Shown here: piece by piece, positions 28,119 through 49,992 of the stretch
Layout: each line of letters begins with the position of its first letter
Position numbering within the stretch: the first letter of the stretch is position 1
NCBI RefSeq assembly: GCF_048403405.1
Contig: NZ_CP183129.1
Source: Escherichia coli
Lineage (GTDB): Bacteria > Pseudomonadota > Gammaproteobacteria > Enterobacterales > Enterobacteriaceae
Direction: 5' to 3' (one strand)
Length of the DNA stretch: 64,000 bases
Notes under the pieces: generated by a model
The model's input: the letters and a program-made list of their open reading frames with translations, nothing else
Told to the model about the DNA's origin: nothing
Databases searched by the model: none
Program-made: the position numbers and the translations under genes

Positions 28119-28165
28119 TTTGTTATTCCTCTTTAAACCTGTCTGAACCGTTATCAACCGCGCAA

Positions 28166-28210
28166 TAAAAAAGCCCCCGGAAGGTGATCTTCCGGGGGCT
28201 TTCTCATGCG
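28166..28210 (-). terminator. his attenuator terminator hairpin
   Basis: Minus-strand hairpin agcccccggaagatcaccttccgggggc followed by T-run, between hisL and hisG. Confidence 0.65.
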
Positions 28211-28263
28211 TTCATGCACCACTGGAAGATCTGAATGTCTTCCAGCACACATCGCCTGAAAGA

Positions 28264-28314
28264 CTAGTCAGGATGATGGTGATGATGGTGGTGTTTAAAT
28301 TGAACGCGTGTCAT
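28264..28314 (-). CDS. hisL: his operon leader peptide (MTRVQFKHHHHHHHPD)
   Basis: 16-codon ORF with seven consecutive His codons upstream of attenuator hairpin. Confidence 0.85.
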   Translation of the reverse strand: MTRVQFKHHHHHHHPD

Positions 28315-39158: not shown

Positions 39159-39320
39159 GCGCTGAGATTCCTGCTTGTTGCCGGAAAAGCAGGCACCTGC
39201 CGTCTGAACGGTATCGATCCGGAAGCGTATCTGCGCCATATTCTGAGCATACTGCCGGAATGGCCCTCCAACCGTGTTGACGAACTCCTGCCATGGAACG
39301 TAGTTCTCACCAATAAATAA
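39159..39320 (+). mobile_element. IS66-family transposase C-terminal remnant
   Basis: Plus-strand translation GTCRLNGIDPEAYLRHILSILPEWPSNRVDELLPWNVVLTNK* resembles IS66 TnpC C-terminus; no intact element. Confidence 0.4.
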
Positions 39321-39734
39321 GCGTCAATATGGTGCTCCGTTGACGCTTACTTTAATCCGTTTTCTGAGCTTAGATTTTTCTGTTCCTACCCAGACCGTGG
39401 ATTTGGAATTCATTTTTTGTCAGGTCAATGCTAATCGTTAAAACGGCCATAACGCACCTCCACTGGAAGGTTTATCAGTAATATCCTACCGTTGCTTCAT
39501 GGTCGGGGCGTCCATTCCATTATTATCGGTTTTCCTTTCTGTTTATAAATGAAAACGCCAGCTGTATTCAGGCTGGCGTCAGGGGAAATGAAGCCTGTTG
39601 AGTGAGATTCACCGGTTCTGGTGCAGAAGCTGCAGATGGCGCAGGGTAAGGACATCTTCTCTTGCCTGCTTAATACAGGACAACAGTGCTGTTTCTGTGG
39701 TTAATGGCACTATACCCTGCATCACTGCATTGTC

Positions 39735-39929
39735 TTACAGCAACTGGTGAGGGCTGGCATAAGTTGCCGGTGTTTCGGTAGAGTCACGGTCATCCACCAC
39801 GCGGAGTGAATAACCGTTTTCAGCGGCCTTATTAATCAGTTCAGTGATATTAACACCATCAATGTCAACGACAATGTGCCCCATATCCAGCGCCTGTACG
39901 TTAACGCTGTCGGCTTCCAGTGTCATCAT
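39735..39929 (-). CDS. yeeW: Prophage protein YeeW
   Basis: 64 aa; start overlaps the cbtA reading-frame end (ATGA); CP4-44 synteny. Confidence 0.65.
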   Translation of the reverse strand: MMTLEADSVNVQALDMGHIVVDIDGVNITELINKAAENGYSLRVVDDRDSTETPATYASPHQLL

Positions 39930-40299
39930 TTCGCCTCCGGATACTTACCCAGGGTAATGTTATTTACCGTTCTGTAATTGTCGCGGGTCATCAGGCCGGT
40001 CGCCCTGCGAGCCCGGAGGATATCGATGCTGTTTATTAACTGAGAGCGGGTACAGGCGCTGAATCCCGGCTGGTCGGTAGCACCAGCGCGTATTTTTCCA
40101 CGAGAAAGTTCACCGCATCACACAGTGAAATGCCTGCCTCAATATGCTGCTCAATCACACGTTCATCGGCAAAAGGTGTGTCATTCTGTGTGAGGCCATA
40201 GTGCTGGTCCAGCAGTCGGGACAGCAGTATCTGCCAGATTTCAACAGGAGACGGGCGAGAACTGGCCGCCTGCCCGGGTAATACAGGTAATGTTTTCAT
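39926..40299 (-). pseudogene. cbtA: CbtA (YeeV) toxin gene, frameshifted
   Basis: N-terminal 72 aa match CbtA; intact ORF ends after 87 aa, while the remainder of the toxin is readable in another frame down to the yeeW start. Confidence 0.65.
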
Positions 40300-40387
40300 A
40301 CTGAAGATTTTCCTGATATGCAGATATAAAAATGGAAAAGTGGCGTGGTGAAAACACCAGGCCGTAGCAGAAGGCTATTCTGGAGAG

Positions 40388-40756
40388 TTAATTTTTCATT
40401 TCGGGCGTCGGATAAACAGCCAGATAAACGTAACCACAACTGCTGAGGGTATCGGCTTTGCAGGTCAGCCCTTTTGCATACAGCGTGACGGTATGCTGAT
40501 GGCGGGGATTCAGTTCACCGCTGGTGAGCATGAGTTCCAGTTGTTTCATCAGCAGCGGAAAGGCCTGGTCCAGGTGGTACGCATCTGCATCGCTGAACAG
40601 GCCTCTGATACCGGCGCGGTCGGCAAGGTAATGCAGGCGGTTACCCTCCTGCACCAGACGTGCCCCGAAACAGGGCGTCACGGTGCAGGGCAGCCCCCAC
40701 CAGGGGCGGTCGTGATTGTCGTCGGGAAGTGTTGTCCCGGGGAGTGTGTCTGACAC
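40388..40756 (-). CDS. cbeA: CbeA (YeeU) antitoxin
   Basis: 122 aa; recalled CbeA sequence; directly upstream of cbtA. Confidence 0.85.
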   Translation of the reverse strand: MSDTLPGTTLPDDNHDRPWWGLPCTVTPCFGARLVQEGNRLHYLADRAGIRGLFSDADAYHLDQAFPLLMKQLELMLTSGELNPRHQHTVTLYAKGLTCKADTLSSCGYVYLAVYPTPEMKN

Positions 40757-40829
40757 GATAAAATCCTTACAGAAAATCGGCTAAGAATGGTCCGGTAGTG
40801 GCGATAATTCTGCTCATCAGAATTCCCAC

Positions 40830-41051
40830 TCAGTTCAGGGTGACGCTCATCAGCCGGACATACGGACCAAAACTGTCCTTACGGCGTTCGGCAAACACGG
40901 CCAGCACACCGGGAATATCCTGCACTTCACGACCGGTATAAACCTCAGCACTGCCGTGCCAGCGGTATTTGCCGGTACAGAACGAAAAAAGACGGGATGC
41001 CGGATGCTGACGGTGAATACGCATGGCTTCGCCACGGGTGATAATTTTCAT
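40830..41051 (-). CDS. yeeT: Prophage protein YeeT (DUF987)
   Basis: 73 aa; conserved position between radC-like gene and cbeA. Confidence 0.75.
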   Translation of the reverse strand: MKIITRGEAMRIHRQHPASRLFSFCTGKYRWHGSAEVYTGREVQDIPGVLAVFAERRKDSFGPYVRLMSVTLN

Positions 41052-41113
41052 AATGGGATACCTCTGAAGACAGAAGATAAAAGTGAAAACAGGTGTGATG
41101 TGGTTGTGACGGG

Positions 41114-41605
41114 TTAAAGCAGACCATGTTCGGCAAAGGAGAAAACCTGGTTGCCACCGACTATCAGATGGTCCGGCACCCGGATATCCACCAGGCCCAG
41201 TGCCTGTACCAGACGTTCCGTGATAAGGCAGTCTGCCTTGCTGGGTGTGACTTCACCGGACGGGTGATTGTGTGCCAGCACCACGGCAGCGGCATTGTGA
41301 TACAGGGCGCGTTTAATCACTTCCCGGGGATGGACTTCCGTGCGGTTGATGGTGCCGGTGAAGAGGGTTTCACCGGCAATCAGCTGATTCTGGTTATTCA
41401 GATACAGCACCCGGAATTCTTCACGCTCCAGTCCCGCCATGTTCAGAATCAGCCATTCCCGTGCCGCACGGGTGGAGGTGAAGGGCACGCCGGGTTCATG
41501 AAGATGGCGGTCCAGGGTTTTCAGGGCCCGCAGAATGAGGCTGCGCTCGCCGGGCGTCATCTCTCCTGGCAGAAAGGAAAGTTGTTGCATTGTGCTTCTC
41601 TCCAT
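41114..41605 (-). CDS. yeeS: RadC-like JAB-domain protein (YeeS/YfjY family)
   Basis: JAMM motif region (HNHPSGEVTPSKADCLIT); likely true start at MQQLSFLPGE. Confidence 0.8.
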   Translation of the reverse strand: MERSTMQQLSFLPGEMTPGERSLILRALKTLDRHLHEPGVPFTSTRAAREWLILNMAGLEREEFRVLYLNNQNQLIAGETLFTGTINRTEVHPREVIKRALYHNAAAVVLAHNHPSGEVTPSKADCLITERLVQALGLVDIRVPDHLIVGGNQVFSFAEHGLL

Positions 41606-42085
41606 TCAGTCGATGATGCGCATAATGGCGCTGCATTCCGGATGCTGCAGGGCGTAATCCCGCAGCCGGTAATAATGGACCGTCATGGCATAACACTCTG
41701 TACGACAGGCATGATGACTGTACGTCATCAGACAGGCAGCAATGCCGGCGGCTTCCGGGCTCATTTCAGCGCGGTTACCGTTCATGACATTGAACAGTAC
41801 CCATGTTTCGTCATCATCGTCATCCGGTTCGGGTACCATAAATGCCCCGCCGTTGTTCAGGGTGTACAGATTCCAGATACCACCGCAGTAGTCTTCGCAC
41901 AGACGGTCCATCCAGCCGAAGACACGGGGCTCCAGGGTCACCCACTGTGGAATGAGGCCAAAATGCTGCGGCCAGAAGCTGATGCGCTGTTCATCAGGGA
42001 CGAGGCTGGCAACCAACTGAGGCGGATTATTCTCTGGTGTTGTAGCTGAATAAATTGTGGGGGTATTCTGAGAAACGGTTTTCAT
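41606..42085 (-). CDS. Antirestriction protein (YfjX/YafX, KlcA/ArdB-like)
   Basis: 159 aa; acidic DDDDDE stretch; conserved prophage position upstream of radC-like gene. Confidence 0.7.
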   Translation of the reverse strand: MKTVSQNTPTIYSATTPENNPPQLVASLVPDEQRISFWPQHFGLIPQWVTLEPRVFGWMDRLCEDYCGGIWNLYTLNNGGAFMVPEPDDDDDETWVLFNVMNGNRAEMSPEAAGIAACLMTYSHHACRTECYAMTVHYYRLRDYALQHPECSAIMRIID

Positions 42086-42166
42086 GAGATAACTCCTTAA
42101 ATAACAAATAAATGTGTGTTTTTCAGGAACGAAAGCTGAATGATTCCCTCACTCAGGGAAACGGCA

Positions 42167-42988
42167 TCAGCGCAGGCTCTCCAGCATCGTTTCTGCCATC
42201 ACCCACAATGCGCGATTGAGCTTAATGTCGGTATCAATGCTGTGAATGGCCCGGGTATGGATACGTTTTCCTCTGGCACTGCGACCGGAAATCCCGCCTT
42301 TCAGCATATTCTCCTGGATGGTCTGATATGCGCTCCACAGGTCCTTACCGTAATCCTCCCGGCGTCGCGGCGTCAGAATGTCGGCGGTGGTGACGGGCTG
42401 ATGTTCGTCACCATAACGGTAAGTCAGTGCCGCCTGTGCCAGCGCCTGGCGTGCCGGTGGCGGCAGGACCAGCGACTGCATGGCATCACGCTTCTCCTCT
42501 ATCCGGTCAAACACGCCCACCACCTCGTAAGCCCCTTCGATAACTTTCTCCACTACATTTCCCCGGTGTGGAACACGCACTTCCCCCAGAGACTGGCCAC
42601 AGACGCACCCGTTCTGGCAGACGAACCTGAAGTAACCCGGCAGCATCTGGTAGCTGGAGGTACCGTCATGAGAGTTGAGCAGAATAATTTCAGGGACATG
42701 TTCTCCGTTTATCTCTCCGGCCCGCCGCAGACGCAGCATGTGTTTTGTGTATCCCCGGCGGCCCGGGTCGCGCACACGGGTCTGGCAGGCGAAGAACGGC
42801 TGAAAGCCTTCCCGCTGCAGATTTTCCAGGACGGTAATGGTGGGAATGTACGCATACCGTTCACTGCGGGAGATGTGCCGGTCTTCCCCAAAAATACTGG
42901 GTACATGGCGTATCAGTTCTTCATGTGTCAGCGGACGGTCACGGCGTATCTGGTTTGCAGCATAACCAAAACGACTGGCTAATCGCAT
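42167..42988 (-). CDS. DUF932-family prophage protein (YfjQ/YafZ-like)
   Basis: 273 aa; recalled family and conserved position in CP4-type elements. Confidence 0.6.
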   Translation of the reverse strand: MRLASRFGYAANQIRRDRPLTHEELIRHVPSIFGEDRHISRSERYAYIPTITVLENLQREGFQPFFACQTRVRDPGRRGYTKHMLRLRRAGEINGEHVPEIILLNSHDGTSSYQMLPGYFRFVCQNGCVCGQSLGEVRVPHRGNVVEKVIEGAYEVVGVFDRIEEKRDAMQSLVLPPPARQALAQAALTYRYGDEHQPVTTADILTPRRREDYGKDLWSAYQTIQENMLKGGISGRSARGKRIHTRAIHSIDTDIKLNRALWVMAETMLESLR

Positions 42989-43043
42989 ACTTTGCTCCTT
43001 ATCGGTGGTTAAGATTTACTGGTGCAATAAATGAAAAAAGCCG

Positions 43044-43076
43044 CGTCTCCCGGAGAAGACGCGGCCTGACGGGTGA
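43044..43076 (-). terminator. Rho-independent terminator closing the cargo module
   Basis: Minus-strand hairpin gccgcgtcttctccgggagacgcggc followed by TTTTTTCATTT. Confidence 0.5.
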
Positions 43077-43208
43077 AATGAATAAGGTTTATTGTCTGAG
43101 AGGCCTTTCACTGGCGAGCCACGCATTAAGCGGCTTTCCGGTAACAATGGCTGGGGCTGTATTTACCTTTGATATTAATAATGTGCAGAGAAACGCATGG
43201 TTTACTCC

Positions 43209-43619
43209 TTAGATTTTAAGTTTGTCCTGGGCTACAACGACAGGTTTTCCGGATGTGTCGATGACTCCTACCGTCGGTACGCCATTTTTGATTTCGAAGA
43301 ACGGTTTGTTGCTACCTGAGCACAGTTGATTGTCCCCGTATTCAATCATTTGTGCTTTCCCGGTTTTCAGGTTAACTACCGAGACAGTGTAGTCGTAGCA
43401 CCAGGCACCACCACGCTCAAGCACGAAAACATAGCTGTTATCTTTATAGTTGAACTGATTCTTTGTCTGGCAATTCATACCGTCAATTTCGGTACAGGAA
43501 AACGCTTCTGTAGTATTAACGTATTTGATGTTATTTGGCAGTTTTACTTGTTTCGCAGTAGCGAAGACAGAGAACAGAATAGTTACAGCAACGAGTAAAG
43601 TTTTGATAAAAGTTTTCAT
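43209..43619 (-). CDS. Small secreted protein, 4 Cys, unknown function
   Basis: 136 aa; signal peptide MKTFIKTLLVAVTILFSVFATA; low GC. Confidence 0.55.
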   Translation of the reverse strand: MKTFIKTLLVAVTILFSVFATAKQVKLPNNIKYVNTTEAFSCTEIDGMNCQTKNQFNYKDNSYVFVLERGGAWCYDYTVSVVNLKTGKAQMIEYGDNQLCSGSNKPFFEIKNGVPTVGVIDTSGKPVVVAQDKLKI

Positions 43620-43634
43620 GATAGACTCCTTAAA

Positions 43635-44123
43635 TTAGTTAACCGCAGCTACGTAGTTTTTCACCAGATACGCGAATTCATGCACGCCAATTTCACCGAA
43701 CCAAACCAGGTAGGCCGGGTCATCTAAACCAAAGTAACGGTAGCCAACAACTTCATGGGTTTTTGGGTTATAGAGTGTTACGATAAAGTCCCAGCCGCAG
43801 GTATTGGCTTTGCAACCGTCGCCCTGGAACCAGACTGTACCGTTAATGTTTACTGGCGTGATACCTCCACCAGGGCCATCCATATAGCCGCCTTTACCGA
43901 ACATGCCGCTCAGTCCGACCGGTTTTAATGCTTTGTCGATAGCGGCTTTGTAGGTAGCGTCACCTTCGTACAACTCGTACGTTGATGGACACGCTCCAGG
44001 TTGTTCAGCCCAGGCTTCCGGGTTACAACTAAGAGCTTGTTTTACGGTAGCCGCTTCTGCGTTAAAGTTAAAGCCCGTGAACAGAACCGCCAGAAATAAC
44101 ATAAGGGTATGTAAACGTTTCAT
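43635..44123 (-). CDS. Secreted protein, possible Ivy-like lysozyme inhibitor (variant CKxxxCG motif)
   Basis: Start chosen at MKRLHTLMLFLAVLFTGFNFNAEA signal peptide; ORF is open in frame up to 44426 with a second signal-like segment; GDGCKANTCGWDFIV resembles Ivy CKPHDCG region. Confidence 0.5.
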   Translation of the reverse strand: MKRLHTLMLFLAVLFTGFNFNAEAATVKQALSCNPEAWAEQPGACPSTYELYEGDATYKAAIDKALKPVGLSGMFGKGGYMDGPGGGITPVNINGTVWFQGDGCKANTCGWDFIVTLYNPKTHEVVGYRYFGLDDPAYLVWFGEIGVHEFAYLVKNYVAAVN

Positions 44124-44453
44124 TGTAAATATTCTTCCGTTGTAAATGGCGCTGGAAAATTTCTCATCAGTGAAACCTTCCGGAAGTTTCCCCCCCTTGT
44201 ATGATGTATATCGCCAGTATTTTATTTCATCCCGGCTGTAATTTTTATATTCCCCGGCACGTGCAATAACGCTGACCAGAGATATAAGGCTCATTAATAA
44301 CTTTACAGGTAATTTCATAATTAAATTTCCAGTGAGTGAATTGACAGGTGAGGGGTAAAACTTTCTCTCAGGTAATATATATCTGAAAATATTTTCAATA
44401 ACACCAGACAGGAAAAACACCACCACAGGCGGTGGCGTTTCTTTGGGGCGTCT

Positions 44454-45524
44454 TTATTTAATCCGGGCCATCGCGTTTCTCAGTGCCAAATCTGCCTCTT
44501 CCGTTATATCCAGGCTTTTCTGCAATACCGCCTCTGACCGGGTCAGTGCCTGACGTGCTGCCAGCGGTTTCCGGATATGCTCCATCGCCAGCATCGTGTC
44601 TTCATAGCCCTGCTGACGCCAGGCGTCGGTATGTGCCGATGTAAAACTGAGCAGACCGCCGCTGTTGCCACCATCACCTGCATATTTCAGCCTTTTCCGG
44701 GGACGGATCTCAAGGATTGTGGTGTCCGGAAAAGCCTGGCGATCCCATAAAGAACCGTCACTCAGATGCGTCACAATCACCATATTGCATCCGGCATCGA
44801 CCAGAGGCGTCACAGGGGTATTTCCCTGCATATTTCGCCATCCTCCCATACCACCATCACCGAACATTGTCCCCTGAACCTCACGGGGACGGAACAGCAG
44901 GGGCAGCGCGGCTGACGCAAGCAGAGCCTCTTTCTGCTGTCCGCGGGGCAGGCTCTGGATATGCTGAAAAACGGCGTTTTTCGTGGTTCCGACACCCAGT
45001 TCAGCACGAATGCAGTCAATAATATCCTGCATGCCCCCTTCTGTGGGGTACAGCGACACATACAGCGGTAGCCCGTCTGCCAGAGCATCAGTATCAAGAT
45101 AATGATCCATCAGCGCTGTCAGGGGCTCATCTGACAACAACGGCTGAGCCATCAGATTGTCAAACCCGTTGATTGTCGATATATGGCGAAGAAGCGTCGT
45201 AAGCAGTGCTCCTGCACGTCCGGGGATCTGGCAGAGGTTCATTGCCTGGAACAATTTTTTCAGCAATGAAAAGTAAACCAATCTGTTTACCGACAGCACC
45301 TGATTATTCCCCAGATGATCCCAGAGCGCCTCCAGGCGTACGGCAGCTTCTGACAGATCGGTAGAGGCCGCGATAATGGCACCATTGAATGCGCCAATGC
45401 TGGCCCCTGAAACCATGCTGATCTGTGTACCACACTCTGCCAGTGCCTTAACCACTCCCGCCTGATAAGCGCCCACCGCCCCGCCACCGGACAGCACCAG
45501 CCCCGTTTTCATTTCTGTACTCAT
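44454..45524 (-). CDS. Patatin-like phospholipase
   Basis: 356 aa; oxyanion GGGAVGAYQAG, nucleophile GxSxG (GASIG), catalytic DGG (FGDGGMGG); start ATG overlaps upstream stop (ATGA). Confidence 0.8.
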   Translation of the reverse strand: MSTEMKTGLVLSGGGAVGAYQAGVVKALAECGTQISMVSGASIGAFNGAIIAASTDLSEAAVRLEALWDHLGNNQVLSVNRLVYFSLLKKLFQAMNLCQIPGRAGALLTTLLRHISTINGFDNLMAQPLLSDEPLTALMDHYLDTDALADGLPLYVSLYPTEGGMQDIIDCIRAELGVGTTKNAVFQHIQSLPRGQQKEALLASAALPLLFRPREVQGTMFGDGGMGGWRNMQGNTPVTPLVDAGCNMVIVTHLSDGSLWDRQAFPDTTILEIRPRKRLKYAGDGGNSGGLLSFTSAHTDAWRQQGYEDTMLAMEHIRKPLAARQALTRSEAVLQKSLDITEEADLALRNAMARIK

Positions 45525-46426
45525 GCAGCCCCCTTCTGAAATATTTCATCGACCATACTTTCAGAGAGGCGTTCTGCAGAGCAGAGGCGAGGCATGCGAA
45601 CCGGTAAGTGTTCTGCAGCCTGCGTGGTTGACCAGATCACCGGATGCTGCTCTTCACTGCACCAGTCTCCCAGCCAGTTAATCGCGTCATGCCACTCGTT
45701 ATCTGCCTGCTCCCGGCCCTGACCACCAAGCCAGTCCAGAGTGTTCAGACGCACGGTTGCACTACCGCCACTCTCCTGTGCCATCTGCGTTAATGCTTTA
45801 TGTCTGAGAATATCCAGTAGCTGGTTAACCTGGCCTGTTTCGCTCTGACGTATCACATCACCAAACGCGCCCCAGCGAAGCTCTTCAAGTGCCACATAAC
45901 AACGTCCGGCAGGGGAAAATGACGCATATCGCCCGGCGCTCCACCATGAGAATATCTGCTCAAGATGTAACTGCGCCCGCTGAACCTGGTCAACACGGTG
46001 GAGTTTTTCTTCAAGATGATTCAGTTTATGGTGAACCTGATCGGCCAGGGTGAGTAACTGCTCCCGCGTATCTGCGGAATAATGCGCCAGCCTGGCTGTA
46101 TCACTGACCAGTGAACTGACCCTGTCGTTTACCCGGGTAATCGCGTAGTTTGTGGTGGCAAGTGACGTTGTCATCTCCGTCAGCCAGCGCAGGGACGCCT
46201 CAACGCCCTGTGCAAGCGACGCATTGATGGCATTCTGCCGTGCAGCGCCTTCGCCGGTCAGCCCCTCTTTTAAACGCCGGAAGAACGTGCGCTCTCCGGC
46301 CGTGCGGATATGCTCCTGTGCAACATCGATTCCGTTTGCGAAATCAACCACAAATTTTTCAGGAAGACAGGTGAGTACCTGACATACCCGGTTATCAGCA
46401 ATTTGTTGAATAAATGGTGAAGTCAC
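45521..46426 (-). CDS. Hypothetical 301-aa alpha-helical protein coupled between the GTPase and the phospholipase
   Basis: GTG start overlaps stop of upstream gene, own stop overlaps patatin ATG; no recognised motif. Confidence 0.55.
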   Translation of the reverse strand: MTSPFIQQIADNRVCQVLTCLPEKFVVDFANGIDVAQEHIRTAGERTFFRRLKEGLTGEGAARQNAINASLAQGVEASLRWLTEMTTSLATTNYAITRVNDRVSSLVSDTARLAHYSADTREQLLTLADQVHHKLNHLEEKLHRVDQVQRAQLHLEQIFSWWSAGRYASFSPAGRCYVALEELRWGAFGDVIRQSETGQVNQLLDILRHKALTQMAQESGGSATVRLNTLDWLGGQGREQADNEWHDAINWLGDWCSEEQHPVIWSTTQAAEHLPVRMPRLCSAERLSESMVDEIFQKGAA

Positions 46427-48819
46427 AGCATTGTCTCCAGCTCTTCCCTCAGCGCCTTACTGTCAGTAATGAGCTCAGGAACCCTTTCATTTAATGCCTG
46501 AAGTCGCCCGGTAAGCCGTTCCTGCGCCTGCTGATCGCGTTTATGATCTTCAGAGCTCTGAATCAGCGTGTTACGCAGTTGTTCAACTTTCTCCCTGAAT
46601 GCGCAGAAAAAGGCATCGATTTCCTGGCGGACGGGCTGGTTAATATCCTGCTCAATGGATGCCTGCAGCTCCCCGAAATATGCCCGGGTCAGTGACATAA
46701 CTTCCTCTCTGACCTTGTTGATATTGATCACGCTGCGACTCACATCCTCGTCATAGTTTTCCCAGCCCAGGTCACTGGTGCCAAACCATCGACAAACGGT
46801 TCCCCATACGCCACTCTGCCGACGGCGACGGGTGACGGTCTCCGTTCTTTCCTCCATAAGCGCACTCAGATTTATTTTTACCGCGAGCCGGGTCTGTAAC
46901 TGGCTGACTGCCGGAAAACTGATTTTTACGGTAAAGCCCTCATCCTCCAGGCGGGCATTGATGCGACCGGCAATGTTTTCTGTGGCGTACAGGGCCGTGC
47001 CACGAAAACCTGTTTCAATCCCGCTGACGATTTTCTCCAGCTCAGGCCGGAACTGTGCTTCAGCCTCACGGTGCAGGCTGGTCACGGTCGATTCGATTTG
47101 CGTCATCAGTTCAAGGGCTTCCCTGCGATCACTGAATTTTATTTCGGGGCTGTCCGGGGCAAAATCTCGTTTCCTGTAATCCTCCCGGCCCTGGTTGTTG
47201 ATACCGGACCATTGAGAAATTTTCCCCCATAATCCGGACTGAGACCTTCGTTGTTCTGCGTCTTCTTCCTCCAGCATTTGCTGTTCTTTGCGTTTACCGC
47301 TTCTGAAATAGTCATTCAGCTCCTCTTCCAGTGAGGTGCAGACCCCCGTCAGTAATTCCCGGGTTTTAGTATCGATCTCCTCCATGGCCATTCTGACATC
47401 AGTGGTCATCTGCTCCTGACAGTCCGCGATTTCCCGGATATCCGCAAGCAGGCTGGTGATATGCGACTGCAGTGACTGAATGCTTTGCTGTAGCCCCTGA
47501 TGGCGTAACAACAGGTATTCACTGATATTTTCTGCATTCTGCATCAGTTTTGCGGCGGCAGAGTCAACCGCCAGTGCCGCAGCTCTGGAATGTGAGCTCT
47601 GTATGACTTCCGTTATCAGTTGATCGATAAGTGAGCCTTCCCACAGGTCTGTCGCCCCTTCAGTTGCCAGTTCACTGTCTTTACAGACGTATTCTTTTTT
47701 CATGCAACCGAAGGCACCTCTGATAAAATCATCGACCCAGGCTTCATCAACAGGAAGGGTTCCGTTTTTCCGTAACTCATGAAGCGCACGGTTAGCCAGG
47801 TATGCCTGGCGTGAGGATCCGGGATAAACGCGGGAGGCGGGCAGCACATCGCTGTTCAGCATTGCCGGAACTTTCTGGCGTACGGCATCTGCCCCATCGC
47901 CATTGCGGTCTTTCTCATCAAATTTATTGACCAGTACAAACAGGCGGCCGGCTGATACGTCAGCAATGGCATTAAGCTCTTTACGGACGTCTTCATCCGC
48001 TTTTGAGTTCATCTGGGTGTAATCCATCACAGCCAGAACCGCAGAGGCTTTCTGCAGTTGATCCCGCATCATCACTTCCATCTGCGGTTGTCCGGCCTCA
48101 TTAGGGCCGGGGGTATCCAGCAGTGTGAGTGTTCCCTGGCATGCATCCATCCCCACCAGATGGCTGAATTCCACGTCGATCACCGGCAGTTTCTGCACTT
48201 CTGCGTATTCATCAAAAGGAAATTCAGTCCCCATTGCCGCAGCAAGACGAACCAGATCGTTTAACGATGCCAGTCCGGTAAAGATTTCCTCCTCCCCGTG
48301 GTATTCATTTTTGAGCCAGCCATCATCCGTCAGAATATCCAGCAGTTCGCGGGTATCCCCGGTTTGCTGCAGGGTCTGTGCGACCTGCTGTCCTGCCGGG
48401 GTGGCGAGTTTTTCCTGCAGTGTGATTAATAAATTGCGGACAGGCTGAATATGTTCCAGATGGAGAACCGGCTCAGTTTTTCCGGGAACGTGGCGGATGA
48501 GCGTCGGTACAGAGGTCATGGGGCGGTTACGGTTAGGCAGAATTTCCTGCCCCACAATGGCGTTGATGGTGGTTGATTTGCCTGCTTTCATCGTGCCGAC
48601 AACAGCCAGCACCATCTCCCTGCGGGCGGTTTTGATTTGTTCGCCCTCCAGCTCCTCAATTCTTTTCAGTGCTTTCTGTTTATCAAAAAGCAGTCTGTTT
48701 TCGTTCTTACTGTCAGATAACACATCTGGCTCCTCAACCATTTGCCGGAGCAGATTAATGTTCAGTTGCAAAAGTCGGTCGGCTTCATCACAAAGCAGGG
48801 CGATGTTCTTTTCGTGCAT
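46423..48819 (-). CDS. Dynamin-like large GTPase (bacterial DLP)
   Basis: 798 aa; P-loop GTMKAGKST, DTPG, NKFD in the first 300 aa, then about 500 aa helical/coiled-coil-like region; RBS GGAAGG upstream of ATG. Confidence 0.75.
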   Translation of the reverse strand: MHEKNIALLCDEADRLLQLNINLLRQMVEEPDVLSDSKNENRLLFDKQKALKRIEELEGEQIKTARREMVLAVVGTMKAGKSTTINAIVGQEILPNRNRPMTSVPTLIRHVPGKTEPVLHLEHIQPVRNLLITLQEKLATPAGQQVAQTLQQTGDTRELLDILTDDGWLKNEYHGEEEIFTGLASLNDLVRLAAAMGTEFPFDEYAEVQKLPVIDVEFSHLVGMDACQGTLTLLDTPGPNEAGQPQMEVMMRDQLQKASAVLAVMDYTQMNSKADEDVRKELNAIADVSAGRLFVLVNKFDEKDRNGDGADAVRQKVPAMLNSDVLPASRVYPGSSRQAYLANRALHELRKNGTLPVDEAWVDDFIRGAFGCMKKEYVCKDSELATEGATDLWEGSLIDQLITEVIQSSHSRAAALAVDSAAAKLMQNAENISEYLLLRHQGLQQSIQSLQSHITSLLADIREIADCQEQMTTDVRMAMEEIDTKTRELLTGVCTSLEEELNDYFRSGKRKEQQMLEEEDAEQRRSQSGLWGKISQWSGINNQGREDYRKRDFAPDSPEIKFSDRREALELMTQIESTVTSLHREAEAQFRPELEKIVSGIETGFRGTALYATENIAGRINARLEDEGFTVKISFPAVSQLQTRLAVKINLSALMEERTETVTRRRRQSGVWGTVCRWFGTSDLGWENYDEDVSRSVININKVREEVMSLTRAYFGELQASIEQDINQPVRQEIDAFFCAFREKVEQLRNTLIQSSEDHKRDQQAQERLTGRLQALNERVPELITDSKALREELETML

Positions 48820-48880
48820 TATTTAACCTTCCTAAGACGCATTTTCATGACAACCACGGAGGAGGTCATTTACTACAAAC

Positions 48881-48949
48881 GATCGTTTATAACGATCGAT
48901 ATGATAGTAACGATCGATGTATTCTATTAACTTGAGAAACACAACGCAA
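48881..48949 (-). promoter_or_regulatory. Sigma70-like promoter (TTGCGT-N17-TAGAAT) followed by three GATC sites in AACGATCG repeats; candidate Dam/OxyR phase-variation switch
   Basis: Minus strand: TTGCGT, 17-nt spacer, TAGAAT, then CGATCG x3 within about 35 bp, about 60 bp upstream of the GTPase ATG. Confidence 0.5.
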
Positions 48950-49036
48950 GGGGACAACCCGGGTATGGCTGCGTTTGCATAGTGTTTTCATGGAGTTAAA
49001 AATCTGTAACAACAGCCTGGTACATCACCACCGGGT

Positions 49037-49909
49037 TCAGAAGAAAATCCAGTTCCATACCGCGCGGGCAACAGAGACCACCGAGTCACGGACGGCACGC
49101 AGAACCGTGCGTGCAACAGAGGCAATACAGGCGCTCTCCGCCGTGTCAAATATCCGGTCCACCGCACCGGTAAACTGTTCACGGGCCTGAGCGCGGACAG
49201 ATTCCGTGCGCAGCTCGTCCTGCAGGCGGGTCATCAGGGGACTGGCGGCATGGTCGGGAAGTGCTGTCATGAGCGCACTGACCAGCGTATCCAGTTCCCA
49301 GCCGGTGCGGGCCGATACGGCAACAACCCGATGTACGGGCCGGAACAGACGGAATACCGCCTCCGTTTTTTCGCGAATGTTCTGTGCCTGTGCGGGAGAA
49401 GGCTGAATACCGGCCATATCCCATTCATGGCAGGGCTCCGTTTTATCGGCCTGCATCACCACAAACAGTACCCGCTGATGTCCCCGGTGCAGGATGTGTC
49501 GCCAGAAATACTCATCCACAGACAGGGCACGGTCATCGGCTTTAATCAGCCACAGTACCAGGTCCAGTTCGGGCAGAATGTCACGGTACAGGGCTTCATA
49601 CTCTGCATCCCTGTCCCGGCTCTCGCCCACCCCGGGCAGGTCAGTGATAACCATGCTGTGACCATGGCCATTCAGACGGAAGCGCTGCACTTCCCGGGTG
49701 CCGGCGTGAACATCACTGACCGGGGTGATCTCCCCCTGAAACAGCGCATTACAGAGTGAGGATTTACCGGCCCCGCTTTTACCCATAATGCCAGGCACGG
49801 GTTCGTGACTGGTGAGTTTGCGCAGATGTTCCAGGATGTGACGGGAAAGTGAGTAAGGCAGGGAGGAGAGCGGTTTTTCAATTGCCTCAATGGCATCAGA
49901 CGGATTCAT
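49037..49909 (-). CDS. yeeP: YeeP/YfjP/YkfA-family prophage GTPase
   Basis: Start chosen at MNPSD; P-loop GIMGKSGAGKSS, DLPG, MQADK; conserved CP4-type backbone gene. Confidence 0.7.
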   Translation of the reverse strand: MNPSDAIEAIEKPLSSLPYSLSRHILEHLRKLTSHEPVPGIMGKSGAGKSSLCNALFQGEITPVSDVHAGTREVQRFRLNGHGHSMVITDLPGVGESRDRDAEYEALYRDILPELDLVLWLIKADDRALSVDEYFWRHILHRGHQRVLFVVMQADKTEPCHEWDMAGIQPSPAQAQNIREKTEAVFRLFRPVHRVVAVSARTGWELDTLVSALMTALPDHAASPLMTRLQDELRTESVRAQAREQFTGAVDRIFDTAESACIASVARTVLRAVRDSVVSVARAVWNWIFF

Positions 49910-49992
49910 ACATGTATTCCCGGTGAAAAAAGACAAAACCCCGCGCACCGGAAAGGTGGCGGGGGATTCACGGAAATAATATCTGTCTGAAA

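What the first reader, a model, noticed from the sequence alone, without database searches (positions are those of the whole stretch)
48878..48950. Triple GATC cluster in AACGATCG direct repeats just downstream of a near-consensus promoter (agn43-like Dam/OxyR switch)
On the minus strand, about 60 bp upstream of the dynamin-like gene, there is TTGCGT, a 17-nt spacer, TAGAAT, and then three GATC sites inside a thrice-repeated AACGATCG motif within about 35 bp. Three closely spaced GATC sites in the initially transcribed region are the hallmark of the agn43 (flu) phase-variation switch, where OxyR binding competes with Dam methylation. flu normally occupies this position downstream of yeeP in K-12, so the cargo appears to have retained or acquired an epigenetic ON/OFF switch.
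Basis: partly seen in the sequence, partly recalled or inferred. Interest (0 to 1): 0.85.

Follow-up and report, generated by a model that had tools for sequence, protein, structure and literature searches.

The report
agn43-type Dam/OxyR switch driving dynamin operon
The three GATC sites are a true relative of the E. coli antigen-43 methylation ON/OFF switch, here joined directly to a dynamin-like GTPase / YjcZ / phospholipase operon, so this common island operon is probably expressed in only part of a clonal population, which no paper in the searched library reports.

Summary
On the minus strand lie TTGCGT (48949-48944), a 17-nt spacer, TAGAAT (48926-48921) and three GATC sites (48915-48912, 48897-48894, 48884-48881), each inside CGATCGTT. 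Three GATCs in 35 bp are not rare by chance. What matters is homology: the -35-to-GATC-III core is 73% identical to the K-12 yeeP-flu (agn43) regulatory region while both flanks are at shuffle level. GATC II-III spacing is the same and GATC-I sits 6 nt after the -10 in both. A 37-nt stretch covering the GATCs matches the OxyR consensus at 16/20 positions, the best in the window; the K-12 agn43 region in the same register scores 14/20. In 118/118 related loci the switch follows a yeeP-family GTPase gene. The cargo varies: Ag43/Cah, this dynamin-YjcZ-patatin operon, or a small Citrobacter secreted protein. The window looks like an Ag43/Cah-type locus that lost the autotransporter. The fused form is in 1985 of 5426 complete E. 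coli genomes, including CFT073 and MP1. In MP1 this operon was the most strongly up-regulated cluster between lysogen and non-lysogen, with no cause identified, which fits a phase difference. Methylation-dependent switching remains untested. New member of a known kind.

The parts
49037..49948 (-). yeeP-family (Era/Der-like) GTPase gene that always precedes the switch
   Evidence: ORF; NCBIfam small-GTPase hits; annotated 'GTPase family protein' in identical RefSeq loci. A homologue lies on the same strand upstream in 118/118 switch loci with at least 400 nt of upstream sequence.
48944..48949 (-). -35 hexamer TTGCGT (3/6 to consensus)
   Evidence: The TTG aligns with the TTG of the K-12 flu TTGTCC.
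48921..48926 (-). -10 hexamer TAGAAT, 17 nt after the -35
   Evidence: Invariant in K-12 flu, O157 cah and the FRIK2533 allele. Its presence in the Citrobacter and metagenome loci was required by the search pattern, so those do not add evidence.
48915..48915 (-). Predicted transcription start (G of GATC-I), by homology
   Evidence: The K-12 IsrC/IS102 RNA begins at the G of GATC-I, 6 nt after TAGAAT. The window has the same geometry. Inferred, not measured.
48882..48918 (.). Predicted OxyR tetramer site ATCGATCGTTACTATCATATCGATCGTTATAAACGAT, overlapping the three GATC sites
   Evidence: 16/20 consensus positions, the best in the window. The K-12 agn43 GATC region scores 14/20 in the same register.
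48912..48915 (.). GATC-I (predicted +1 to +4)
48894..48897 (.). GATC-II (predicted +19 to +22)
   Evidence: 18 nt from GATC-I, against 19 in the Ag43-type switches.
48881..48884 (.). GATC-III (predicted +32 to +35)
   Evidence: 13 nt from GATC-II, as in K-12.
48820..48915 (-). Predicted 96-nt 5' UTR. It lacks the IS102/IsrC leader and the terminator hairpin of agn43. The join to the dynamin-proximal 44 nt is at about 48863/48864.
   Evidence: The fold is not significant (z = -1.7).
46423..48819 (-). Dynamin-like GTPase, 798 aa, a paralogue of CrfC/YjdA (RdcA)
   Evidence: NF007368 (CrfC) E = 1.2e-166 but 556 bits against a cutoff of 1146. P-loop GTMKAGKST, DTPG and NKFD are intact. Annotated 'dynamin family protein'.
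45521..46426 (-). YjcZ/RdcB-family protein, 301 aa; start overlaps the dynamin stop
   Evidence: Pfam PF13990 (YjcZ) E = 4.7e-70; annotation.
44454..45524 (-). Patatin-like phospholipase, 356 aa; start overlaps the YjcZ-like stop
   Evidence: GGG oxyanion hole, GASIG serine and DGG aspartate motifs are present. Weak NCBIfam and PADLOC phospholipase hits. Annotation.
44418..44434 (-). Terminator-like hairpin after the patatin gene; possible operon end
   Evidence: In MP1 two further downstream genes were co-regulated (PMC12922286), so read-through is possible.

Best explanation
This is a homologue of the agn43 (flu) Dam/OxyR phase-variation switch, fused directly to a three-gene operon: a CrfC/RdcA-like dynamin GTPase, a YjcZ/RdcB-like protein and a patatin-like phospholipase.

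Proposed mechanism, by homology. A sigma-70 promoter (TTGCGT-17-TAGAAT) starts transcription at or near the G of GATC-I (48915). Reduced OxyR binds the 37-bp site at 48918-48882, which begins 2 nt after the -10 and spans +1 to about +34. Binding blocks RNA polymerase and shields the three GATCs from Dam, giving an OFF state in which the sites stay unmethylated and the state is inherited. If Dam methylates the GATCs after replication before OxyR rebinds, OxyR is excluded and the operon is ON. The result is a mixed, reversible ON/OFF population.

Shown here: the sequence anatomy, homology to the agn43 region, the OxyR consensus match, the invariable position after a yeeP-family GTPase gene, and the distribution. 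Inferred: the transcription start, OxyR binding, its sensitivity to methylation, and bistable expression.

Likely history: a GTPase-switch-Ag43/Cah-dynamin locus lost the autotransporter and its IS102/IsrC leader through a deletion at a CCT microhomology. That left the switch 61 nt from the dynamin ATG.
For: (1) Alignment with the K-12 yeeP-flu region conserves the -35 TTG, TAGAAT and the three GATCs. GATC II-III spacing is 13 in both, and GATC-I lies 6 nt after the -10 in both.

(2) Footprint: the core is 0.69-0.74 identical to K-12 flu, O157 cah and two Citrobacter loci, above every shuffle. Flanks are 0.45-0.52, which is shuffle level for K-12 and Citrobacter.

(3) The OxyR consensus match is 16/20, the top of the window. 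The K-12 agn43 GATC region scores 14/20 in the same register. The mechanism at agn43 is described in PMC4872104, PMC2909390 and PMC13337833.

(4) A yeeP-family GTPase gene lies upstream in 118/118 loci.

(5) O157 TR01 has GTPase-switch-cah-dynamin-RdcB-patatin. The window equals its cah-dynamin spacer for the 44 nt before the ATG. No terminator-like site was found between cah and the dynamin gene.

(6) All 17 loci with the 47-nt core have the dynamin ATG at +61, although their dynamin proteins are only 91-100% identical. This points to one old junction that has been maintained.

(7) The fused intergenic region is in 1985 of 5426 complete E. coli genomes. The 53-nt core is identical in 1337 of 2043 matching records. 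Seven of 8 alleles chosen without reference to GATC keep all three sites.

(8) MP1 island 8 carries the same switch in front of SID94_19700-19720. PMC12922286 reports that cluster as the most strongly up-regulated between lysogen and non-lysogen in both media, not tracking the lytic-lysogenic decision, with dynamin regulation 'not described'. A fixed expression difference between two related strains is what picking colonies in different phases gives at agn43 (PMC3764049).
Against: There are no methylation, OxyR-binding or single-cell data for this locus.

GATC-I is 1 nt closer to GATC-II than in every Ag43-type switch (18 against 19), which could change the sensitivity to methylation.

Within the dynamin-type clade the OxyR site is no more conserved than its neighbours: 4/37 variable columns against 0.10-0.135 elsewhere. 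That set was selected with a GATC-containing pattern. In the pattern-independent set, variation actually clusters between the -35 and GATC-II.

One natural allele (BCE049) has lost GATC-I and has TAGATT as its -10.

The -35 is weak (3/6).

The MP1 result has other possible causes, including a real prophage effect. It rests on two replicates, and the PAI-CFT073-aspV copy was affected by multi-mapping reads.
Confidence: 0.72

Rival explanations
1. Inherited relic. The sequence descends from the agn43 switch but no longer works as a bistable switch in this context. The promoter would be constitutive, permanently repressed or dead, and the GATCs persist only because the deletion is evolutionarily recent or the sites are neutral.
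For: No excess conservation of the OxyR site within the clade. The 1-nt change in GATC-I position. A decayed allele exists in BCE049. The agn43 leader with its terminator hairpin is missing.
Against: The same junction persists across dynamin alleles that differ by up to 9% in protein sequence and is present in 37% of complete genomes. The site is closer to the OxyR consensus than the K-12 agn43 region is (16 against 14 of 20). Seven of 8 unbiased alleles keep all three GATCs and the -10. The MP1 operon shows a large strain-to-strain expression difference.
Confidence: 0.15
2. The operon is controlled mainly by something other than Dam/OxyR competition. Candidates are a prophage-encoded or stress-responsive regulator, as the MP1 study proposes, or read-through from the GTPase gene. 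The GATC cluster would then have only a minor role, for example SeqA binding.
For: PMC12922286 interprets the up-regulation as dependent on the Kapi1 prophage. No terminator-like site lies between the GTPase stop and the promoter.
Against: Kapi1 has no annotated DNA methyltransferase or obvious regulator that would act here. The authors themselves note that the expression does not follow the lytic-lysogenic decision. Sequence homology to a characterised OxyR/Dam site is a more economical explanation.
Confidence: 0.1
3. Chance clustering of GATC in an AT-rich spacer, with no regulatory meaning.
For: Clusters of three GATCs in 36 bp are expected about once per 64 kb.
Against: Positional homology with the agn43 region, the conserved position after the GTPase gene, and the top-ranked OxyR match.
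Confidence: 0.02

Closest known systems
agn43 (flu) Dam/OxyR phase-variation switch of E. coli K-12 (CP4-44, yeeP-isrC-flu)
   Same: Position directly after a yeeP-family GTPase gene. TTG-17-TAGAAT promoter. GATC-I 6 nt after the -10. Three GATCs inside one OxyR tetramer site that begins just after the -10. GATC II-III spacing of 13 nt.
   Different: The cargo is a dynamin-YjcZ-patatin operon, not an autotransporter. GATC I-II spacing is 18, not 19. Half-site 1 is closer to the consensus (8/10 against 6/10 by my reading of the sequences). The 5' UTR is 96 nt and lacks the roughly 200-nt IS102/IsrC leader and its terminator hairpin.
cah / agn43 alleles on O157:H7 and UPEC islands (GTPase-switch-cah-dynamin-RdcB-patatin)
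   Same: Same island backbone and the same dynamin operon (98% protein identity). The first ~37 nt after the GTPase stop are identical and the -35 is the same TTGCGT. The 44 nt before the dynamin ATG are identical.
   Different: There the autotransporter sits between the switch and the dynamin operon. That switch has a 48-nt core whose first half-site lacks CTAT.
Salmonella gtr and opvAB Dam/OxyR switches
   Same: Competition between OxyR and Dam at GATCs embedded in OxyR half-sites (PMC2909390, PMC4856963).
   Different: Those have four GATCs in two pairs and alternative OxyR sites upstream of the promoter, with OxyR also acting as an activator. Here there is a single site downstream of the -10 that can only repress.
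RdcA/RdcB (YjdA/YjcZ, also called CrfC), the core-genome dynamin-like GTPase pair that activates DgcE
   Same: The same two-gene architecture and families: full-length CrfC model match at E = 1e-166 and Pfam YjcZ.
   Different: Below the equivalog cutoff. About 30% identity to the core pair according to PMC12922286. An added patatin-like phospholipase. Carried on an island.
Eleos (LeoA/LeoBC) dynamin-type anti-phage system
   Same: Dynamin-like GTPases on mobile islands. PMC12922286 suggests a defence role.
   Different: Only marginal PADLOC hits (LeoBC E = 8.6e-5 with no qualifying stretch). Different partner proteins.

Membership tests
agn43-type Dam/OxyR phase-variation switch | Sequence homology to the agn43 regulatory region | tested here: met
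   Core 0.73 identical to K-12, above all 200 shuffles (maximum 0.60); flanks at shuffle level.
agn43-type Dam/OxyR phase-variation switch | Three GATC sites clustered at and just downstream of the transcription start | tested here: met
   GATCs at predicted +1, +19 and +32, against +1, +20 and +33 in K-12 counted from the IsrC 5' end. The start site in the window is inferred.
agn43-type Dam/OxyR phase-variation switch | A single OxyR tetramer site overlapping the GATCs, placed so as to repress | tested here: met
   16/20 consensus match at 48918-48882, beginning 2 nt after the -10; the best in the window. This is a sequence prediction only.
agn43-type Dam/OxyR phase-variation switch | Position downstream of a yeeP-family GTPase gene on a CP4-44-like island | tested here: met
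   118/118 loci; K-12 and RefSeq annotations.
agn43-type Dam/OxyR phase-variation switch | OxyR binding abolished by GATC methylation; GATCs unmethylated in OFF cells | not testable with these tools
   Needs gel shift or footprinting, plus methylation-sensitive sequencing.
agn43-type Dam/OxyR phase-variation switch | Heritable, reversible ON/OFF expression that depends on dam and oxyR | not testable with these tools
   Only indirect: the MP1 operon behind the same switch differs strongly between two related strains (PMC12922286).
gtr/opvAB-type Dam/OxyR switch | Four GATCs in two pairs with alternative OxyR sites upstream of the promoter | tested here: not met
   Three GATCs, with a single best-scoring OxyR register (16/20; the next candidate in the region scores 13) lying downstream of the -10; architecture of the family from PMC2909390.
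pap-type Dam/Lrp switch | Two GATC boxes 102 bp apart within Lrp sites | tested here: not met
   GATC spacings are 18 and 13 nt, and the nearest other GATCs are hundreds of nt away. Family feature from PMC2909390.
RdcA/RdcB (CrfC/YjdA-YjcZ) orthologues | Score above the NCBIfam equivalog cutoff for CrfC | tested here: not met
   556 bits against a cutoff of 1146: a paralogue, not the core gene. The YjcZ domain is present.
Known anti-phage defence systems (PADLOC 2.0) | Significant match of the operon proteins to system models | tested here: not met
   Only marginal LeoBC, ZorA and phospholipase-effector hits.

The most novel reading that the evidence does not exclude
The yeeP-GTPase-linked Dam/OxyR switch is a portable phase-variation cassette with a cargo slot. 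The same promoter and OxyR/GATC core drives Ag43/Cah autotransporters, the dynamin-YjcZ-patatin operon and a small Citrobacter secreted protein. Where the dynamin operon lies behind agn43/cah with no terminator between them, it would co-vary by read-through. A dynamin/phospholipase membrane system, possibly anti-phage, would then be expressed as a bet-hedging subpopulation trait in more than a third of E. coli strains. Published 'regulation' of this operon would partly reflect which colony was picked.
Probability: 0.4. Interest if true: 0.7.

Novelty: new member of a known kind. Interest (0 to 1): 0.58.

Why it matters
Dam/OxyR epigenetic switching in E. coli is usually discussed for one gene family, agn43. 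If the same switch directly controls a dynamin-like GTPase / YjcZ / patatin operon found in about 37% of complete E. coli genomes, including CFT073 and MP1, three things follow.

1. A widespread island operon of unknown function would be phase-variable. That fits costly or self-damaging functions such as membrane remodelling or abortive phage defence.

2. Bulk transcriptomes, knock-out phenotypes and phage assays of this operon would depend on the ON/OFF state of the colony picked, as shown for agn43 (PMC3764049). The unexplained 'most up-regulated cluster' in PMC12922286 would have a simple alternative explanation.

3. The locus would be a natural experiment in how a switch survives exchange of its cargo, and in how a 1-nt shift of GATC-I and a stronger OxyR half-site affect switching rates.

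Tried and rejected
- **GATC clustering statistics alone**: not significant, so not used as an argument.
- **Consensus promoter scan**: does not call the promoter because the -35 is 3/6. The promoter assignment therefore rests on homology to the K-12 flu upstream region.
- **Excess conservation of the OxyR site within the dynamin-type clade**: none found. That set is also biased by the GATC-containing search pattern. I therefore fetched seven alleles ascertained without the pattern — six BLAST hits and the MP1 island 8 copy, compared with the window.
- **Dynamin relatives in viral contigs**, sought as an unbiased locus set: none.
- **GTDB genome scan with the core pattern**: only 3 loci, two Citrobacter and one mis-binned E. 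coli-like contig. The switch is essentially confined to Escherichia and Citrobacter at this stringency.
- **Phage-encoded Dam as the cause of the MP1 result:** Kapi1 has no annotated methyltransferase, so dropped.
- **Known defence system** (PADLOC): no convincing match.
- **RNA structure in the 5' UTR**: z = -1.7, not significant.
- **Rfam**: no family at gathering threshold in this region.
- **Literature:** no paper in the library combines dynamin with OxyR/Dam phase variation. Two key agn43 papers (PMC135096, PMC2838033) were not available.

Full report
**Observation**

Reading the minus strand gives TTGCGT (48949-48944), a 17-nt spacer and TAGAAT (48926-48921). Then follows acatcGATCgttactatcatatcGATCgttataaacGATCg. 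The GATC sites are at 48912-48915, 48894-48897 and 48881-48884 in + coordinates. Each lies inside CGATCGTT, which is AACGATCG on the + strand. The dynamin-like ORF starts at 48819, 61 nt after GATC-III.

So the description is accurate, with two caveats. The -35 is only 3/6 to consensus, and a consensus scan does not list this promoter. Three GATCs within 36 bp are expected about once per 64 kb by chance, and a second such cluster lies at 24219-24239. The count alone proves nothing.

**What it is: homology to the agn43 switch**

K-12 carries yeeP - isrC - flu in the CP4-44 prophage. Aligning that intergenic region with the window shows near-identity at the end of the GTPase gene, then unalignable sequence. 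A conserved block follows that contains the -35 TTG, TAATAGAAT and all three GATCs, and after it the sequences diverge again.

Quantitatively, the core from the -35 to GATC-III is 0.73 identical to K-12. It is 0.74 identical to O157 cah and 0.69-0.73 to two Citrobacter loci. Each value exceeds all 200 shuffles (maxima 0.60-0.62). The flanking 85 and 59 nt are at 0.45-0.52, which is shuffle level for K-12 and Citrobacter. The Citrobacter loci were found with a GATC-containing pattern; K-12 and O157 were not.

GATC II-III spacing is 13 nt in both K-12 and the window. GATC I-II spacing is 18 nt here against 19 in K-12.

**Transcription start**

In K-12 the annotated IsrC RNA, which matches Rfam IS102 at 252 bits, starts at the G of GATC-I, 6 nt after TAGAAT. 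It runs to a terminator hairpin just before the flu ribosome-binding site. It therefore looks like the agn43 leader.

The same geometry puts the predicted start in the window at 48915 and gives a 96-nt 5' UTR. The IS102 leader itself is absent from the window: only a 20-bit sub-threshold trace remains over the GATC repeats.

**OxyR site**

I scored every position of the window on both strands against the OxyR consensus ATAGnTnnnAnCTAT-N7-ATAGnTnnnAnCTAT (the half-site as recalled from Toledano et al. 1994; PMC2909390 prints it slightly differently). The 37-mer at 48918-48882 scores 16/20 and is the only position that does. The next best score is 14, at six positions.

The K-12 agn43 GATC region scores 14/20 in the same register. 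Published work places the OxyR site over those GATCs. The predicted site here starts 2 nt after the -10 and overlaps all three GATCs. That is the repressing arrangement described for agn43: OxyR bound to unmethylated GATCs blocks transcription and Dam access, and methylation excludes OxyR (PMC4872104, PMC2909390, PMC13337833).

**Surroundings and history**

Upstream lies a yeeP-family GTPase gene (49037-49948). Downstream are three ORFs with overlapping stops and starts.

- A 798-aa dynamin-like GTPase. It matches the CrfC model over its full length at E = 1e-166, but scores 556 bits against a cutoff of 1146, so it is a paralogue. The G motifs are intact.
- A YjcZ/RdcB-family protein (Pfam PF13990, E = 4.7e-70).
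- A patatin-like phospholipase with its GGG, GxSxG and DGG motifs.
- A terminator-like hairpin after the patatin gene.

RefSeq annotates identical loci the same way.

O157:H7 strain TR01 has GTPase - switch - cah - dynamin - RdcB - patatin. The window is identical to its cah-dynamin spacer for the 44 nt before the ATG (48863-48820). It resembles the cah upstream region as far as ...AATGRCC. The two meet at a CCT microhomology.

No terminator-like site separates cah from the dynamin gene. The simplest history is a deletion of the autotransporter and its leader from an Ag43/Cah-dynamin locus. The direction of the event is inferred.

**Wider sampling**

A degenerate pattern for the core found 3 loci among GTDB species representatives and 120 metagenome loci. 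Together with the window and the fetched RefSeq loci that also match the pattern, that makes 128 sequences.

In this set the 47-nt core always lies 61 nt before a dynamin gene: 17 loci, with dynamin proteins 91-100% identical to the window's. The 48-nt cores precede Ag43/Cah. The Citrobacter version precedes a 154-aa protein with a signal peptide and no Pfam or NCBIfam match.

All 118 loci with enough upstream sequence have the GTPase gene on the same strand, ending roughly 100-175 nt (mostly ~100-115) before the -10.

Among complete E. coli genomes:

- The fused intergenic region occurs in 1985 of 5426 genomes, at 2205 places.
- The 5' end of the dynamin gene occurs in 2469 genomes, at 2890 places. 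About three quarters of the operon copies are therefore fused directly to the switch.
- The 53-nt core is identical in 1337 of 2043 matching records.
- CFT073 carries an identical core in front of the operon.

**Conservation tests**

Within the dynamin-type clade the OxyR site is no less variable than its neighbours. That set was selected on intact GATCs, so I compared eight alleles ascertained without the pattern: six BLAST hits, MP1 and the window.

Seven keep all three GATCs. Substitutions fall mainly in the spacer, the three bases after the -10 and the N7 linker. One mastitis isolate (BCE049) has lost GATC-I (CAATCG) and carries TAGATT as its -10. So the evidence for purifying selection inside the clade is weak. 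The stronger argument is conservation across cargo types.

**Independent expression hint**

[quoted passage not shown] The authors note that this class of genes does not track the lytic-lysogenic decision. They also state that regulation of such dynamins 'has not been described', and the paper mentions neither phase variation nor methylation.

I located the cluster. It is dynamin-RdcB-patatin plus two small genes, directly behind a GTPase pseudogene. The 217-nt spacer carries the same promoter and three GATCs. The MP1 dynamin is 92% identical to the window's. Kapi1 has no annotated methyltransferase.

A stable expression difference between two related stocks is what colony choice produces at agn43 (PMC3764049). 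This observation is consistent with phase variation and is not proof of it.

**Verdict**

The element is a member of the agn43-type Dam/OxyR switch family by homology, architecture and genomic position. Methylation-dependent OxyR binding and bistable expression remain untested.

I found no publication linking this operon to Dam/OxyR control. I rate it a new member of a known kind, of moderate to good interest.

Noticed in passing
window 39217-44705: A 5.5-kb stretch with no GATC, against 18.4 expected from dinucleotide content, and no CTAG (12.4 expected). It covers the island backbone downstream of the operon (DUF932, antirestriction, RadC/YeeS, YeeT and CbeA/CbtA-like genes). The K-12 flu ORF also has 0 GATC in 3.1 kb (9.6 expected). 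GATC-poor stretches in mobile elements are reported in PMC4659465. The contrast with three GATCs packed into the switch is striking.
   Followed up: partly
window 24219-24239: A second cluster of three GATCs within 21 bp, apparently inside the his operon coding region downstream of the His leader at 28165-28288. Probably chance.
   Followed up: no
window 48819-48869 (minus strand): A 16-codon upstream ORF (MTSSVVVMKMRLRKVK) whose TAA stop overlaps the dynamin ATG (TAATG). The CCUCC just inside it is predicted to pair with the AGGAAGG ribosome-binding site (z = -1.7, not significant). A shorter 9-codon form also exists in the cah-dynamin spacer.
   Followed up: partly
L001 5316-5519 (K-12) compared with window 48820-48915: Rfam IS102/IsrC starts at the G of GATC-I and ends at a terminator hairpin just before the flu/cah ribosome-binding site, so it looks like the agn43 5' leader, possibly an attenuator. 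This leader is missing from the dynamin-type locus.
   Followed up: partly
L131 (E. coli BCE049, bovine mastitis isolate), aligned: A natural allele with GATC-I destroyed (CGATCG to CAATCG) and the -10 changed to TAGATT. It may be a locked or dead switch.
   Followed up: no
L005 4551-5015 and L006 (Citrobacter braakii, C. amalonaticus): The same GTPase-switch module precedes a 154-aa protein with a signal peptide and no Pfam or NCBIfam match. This is a third cargo type for the switch.
   Followed up: partly
L007 (contig labelled Collinsella sp. MAG): The contig is E. coli-type island DNA: the GTPase gene end, the switch, and an agn43 leader truncated inside its terminator hairpin and joined to a small ORF that I recognise from memory as YeeW-like (not tested). 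It is probably mis-binned, and it shows an independent, larger deletion downstream of the switch.
   Followed up: partly
PMC12922286 (E. coli MP1), PAI-X hyxRAB: The same lysogen/non-lysogen comparison also shows hyxRAB up-regulated in all conditions. From my own knowledge, not checked here, hyxR sits behind an invertible phase-variable promoter. If so, a second phase-variable locus differs between the two stocks.
   Followed up: no
window 43209-44426 (minus strand): Two small ORFs after the patatin gene with no family match. The first contains two signal-peptide-like segments, and its N-terminal 60 aa are 49% identical to the co-regulated MP1 gene SID94_19705.
   Followed up: partly
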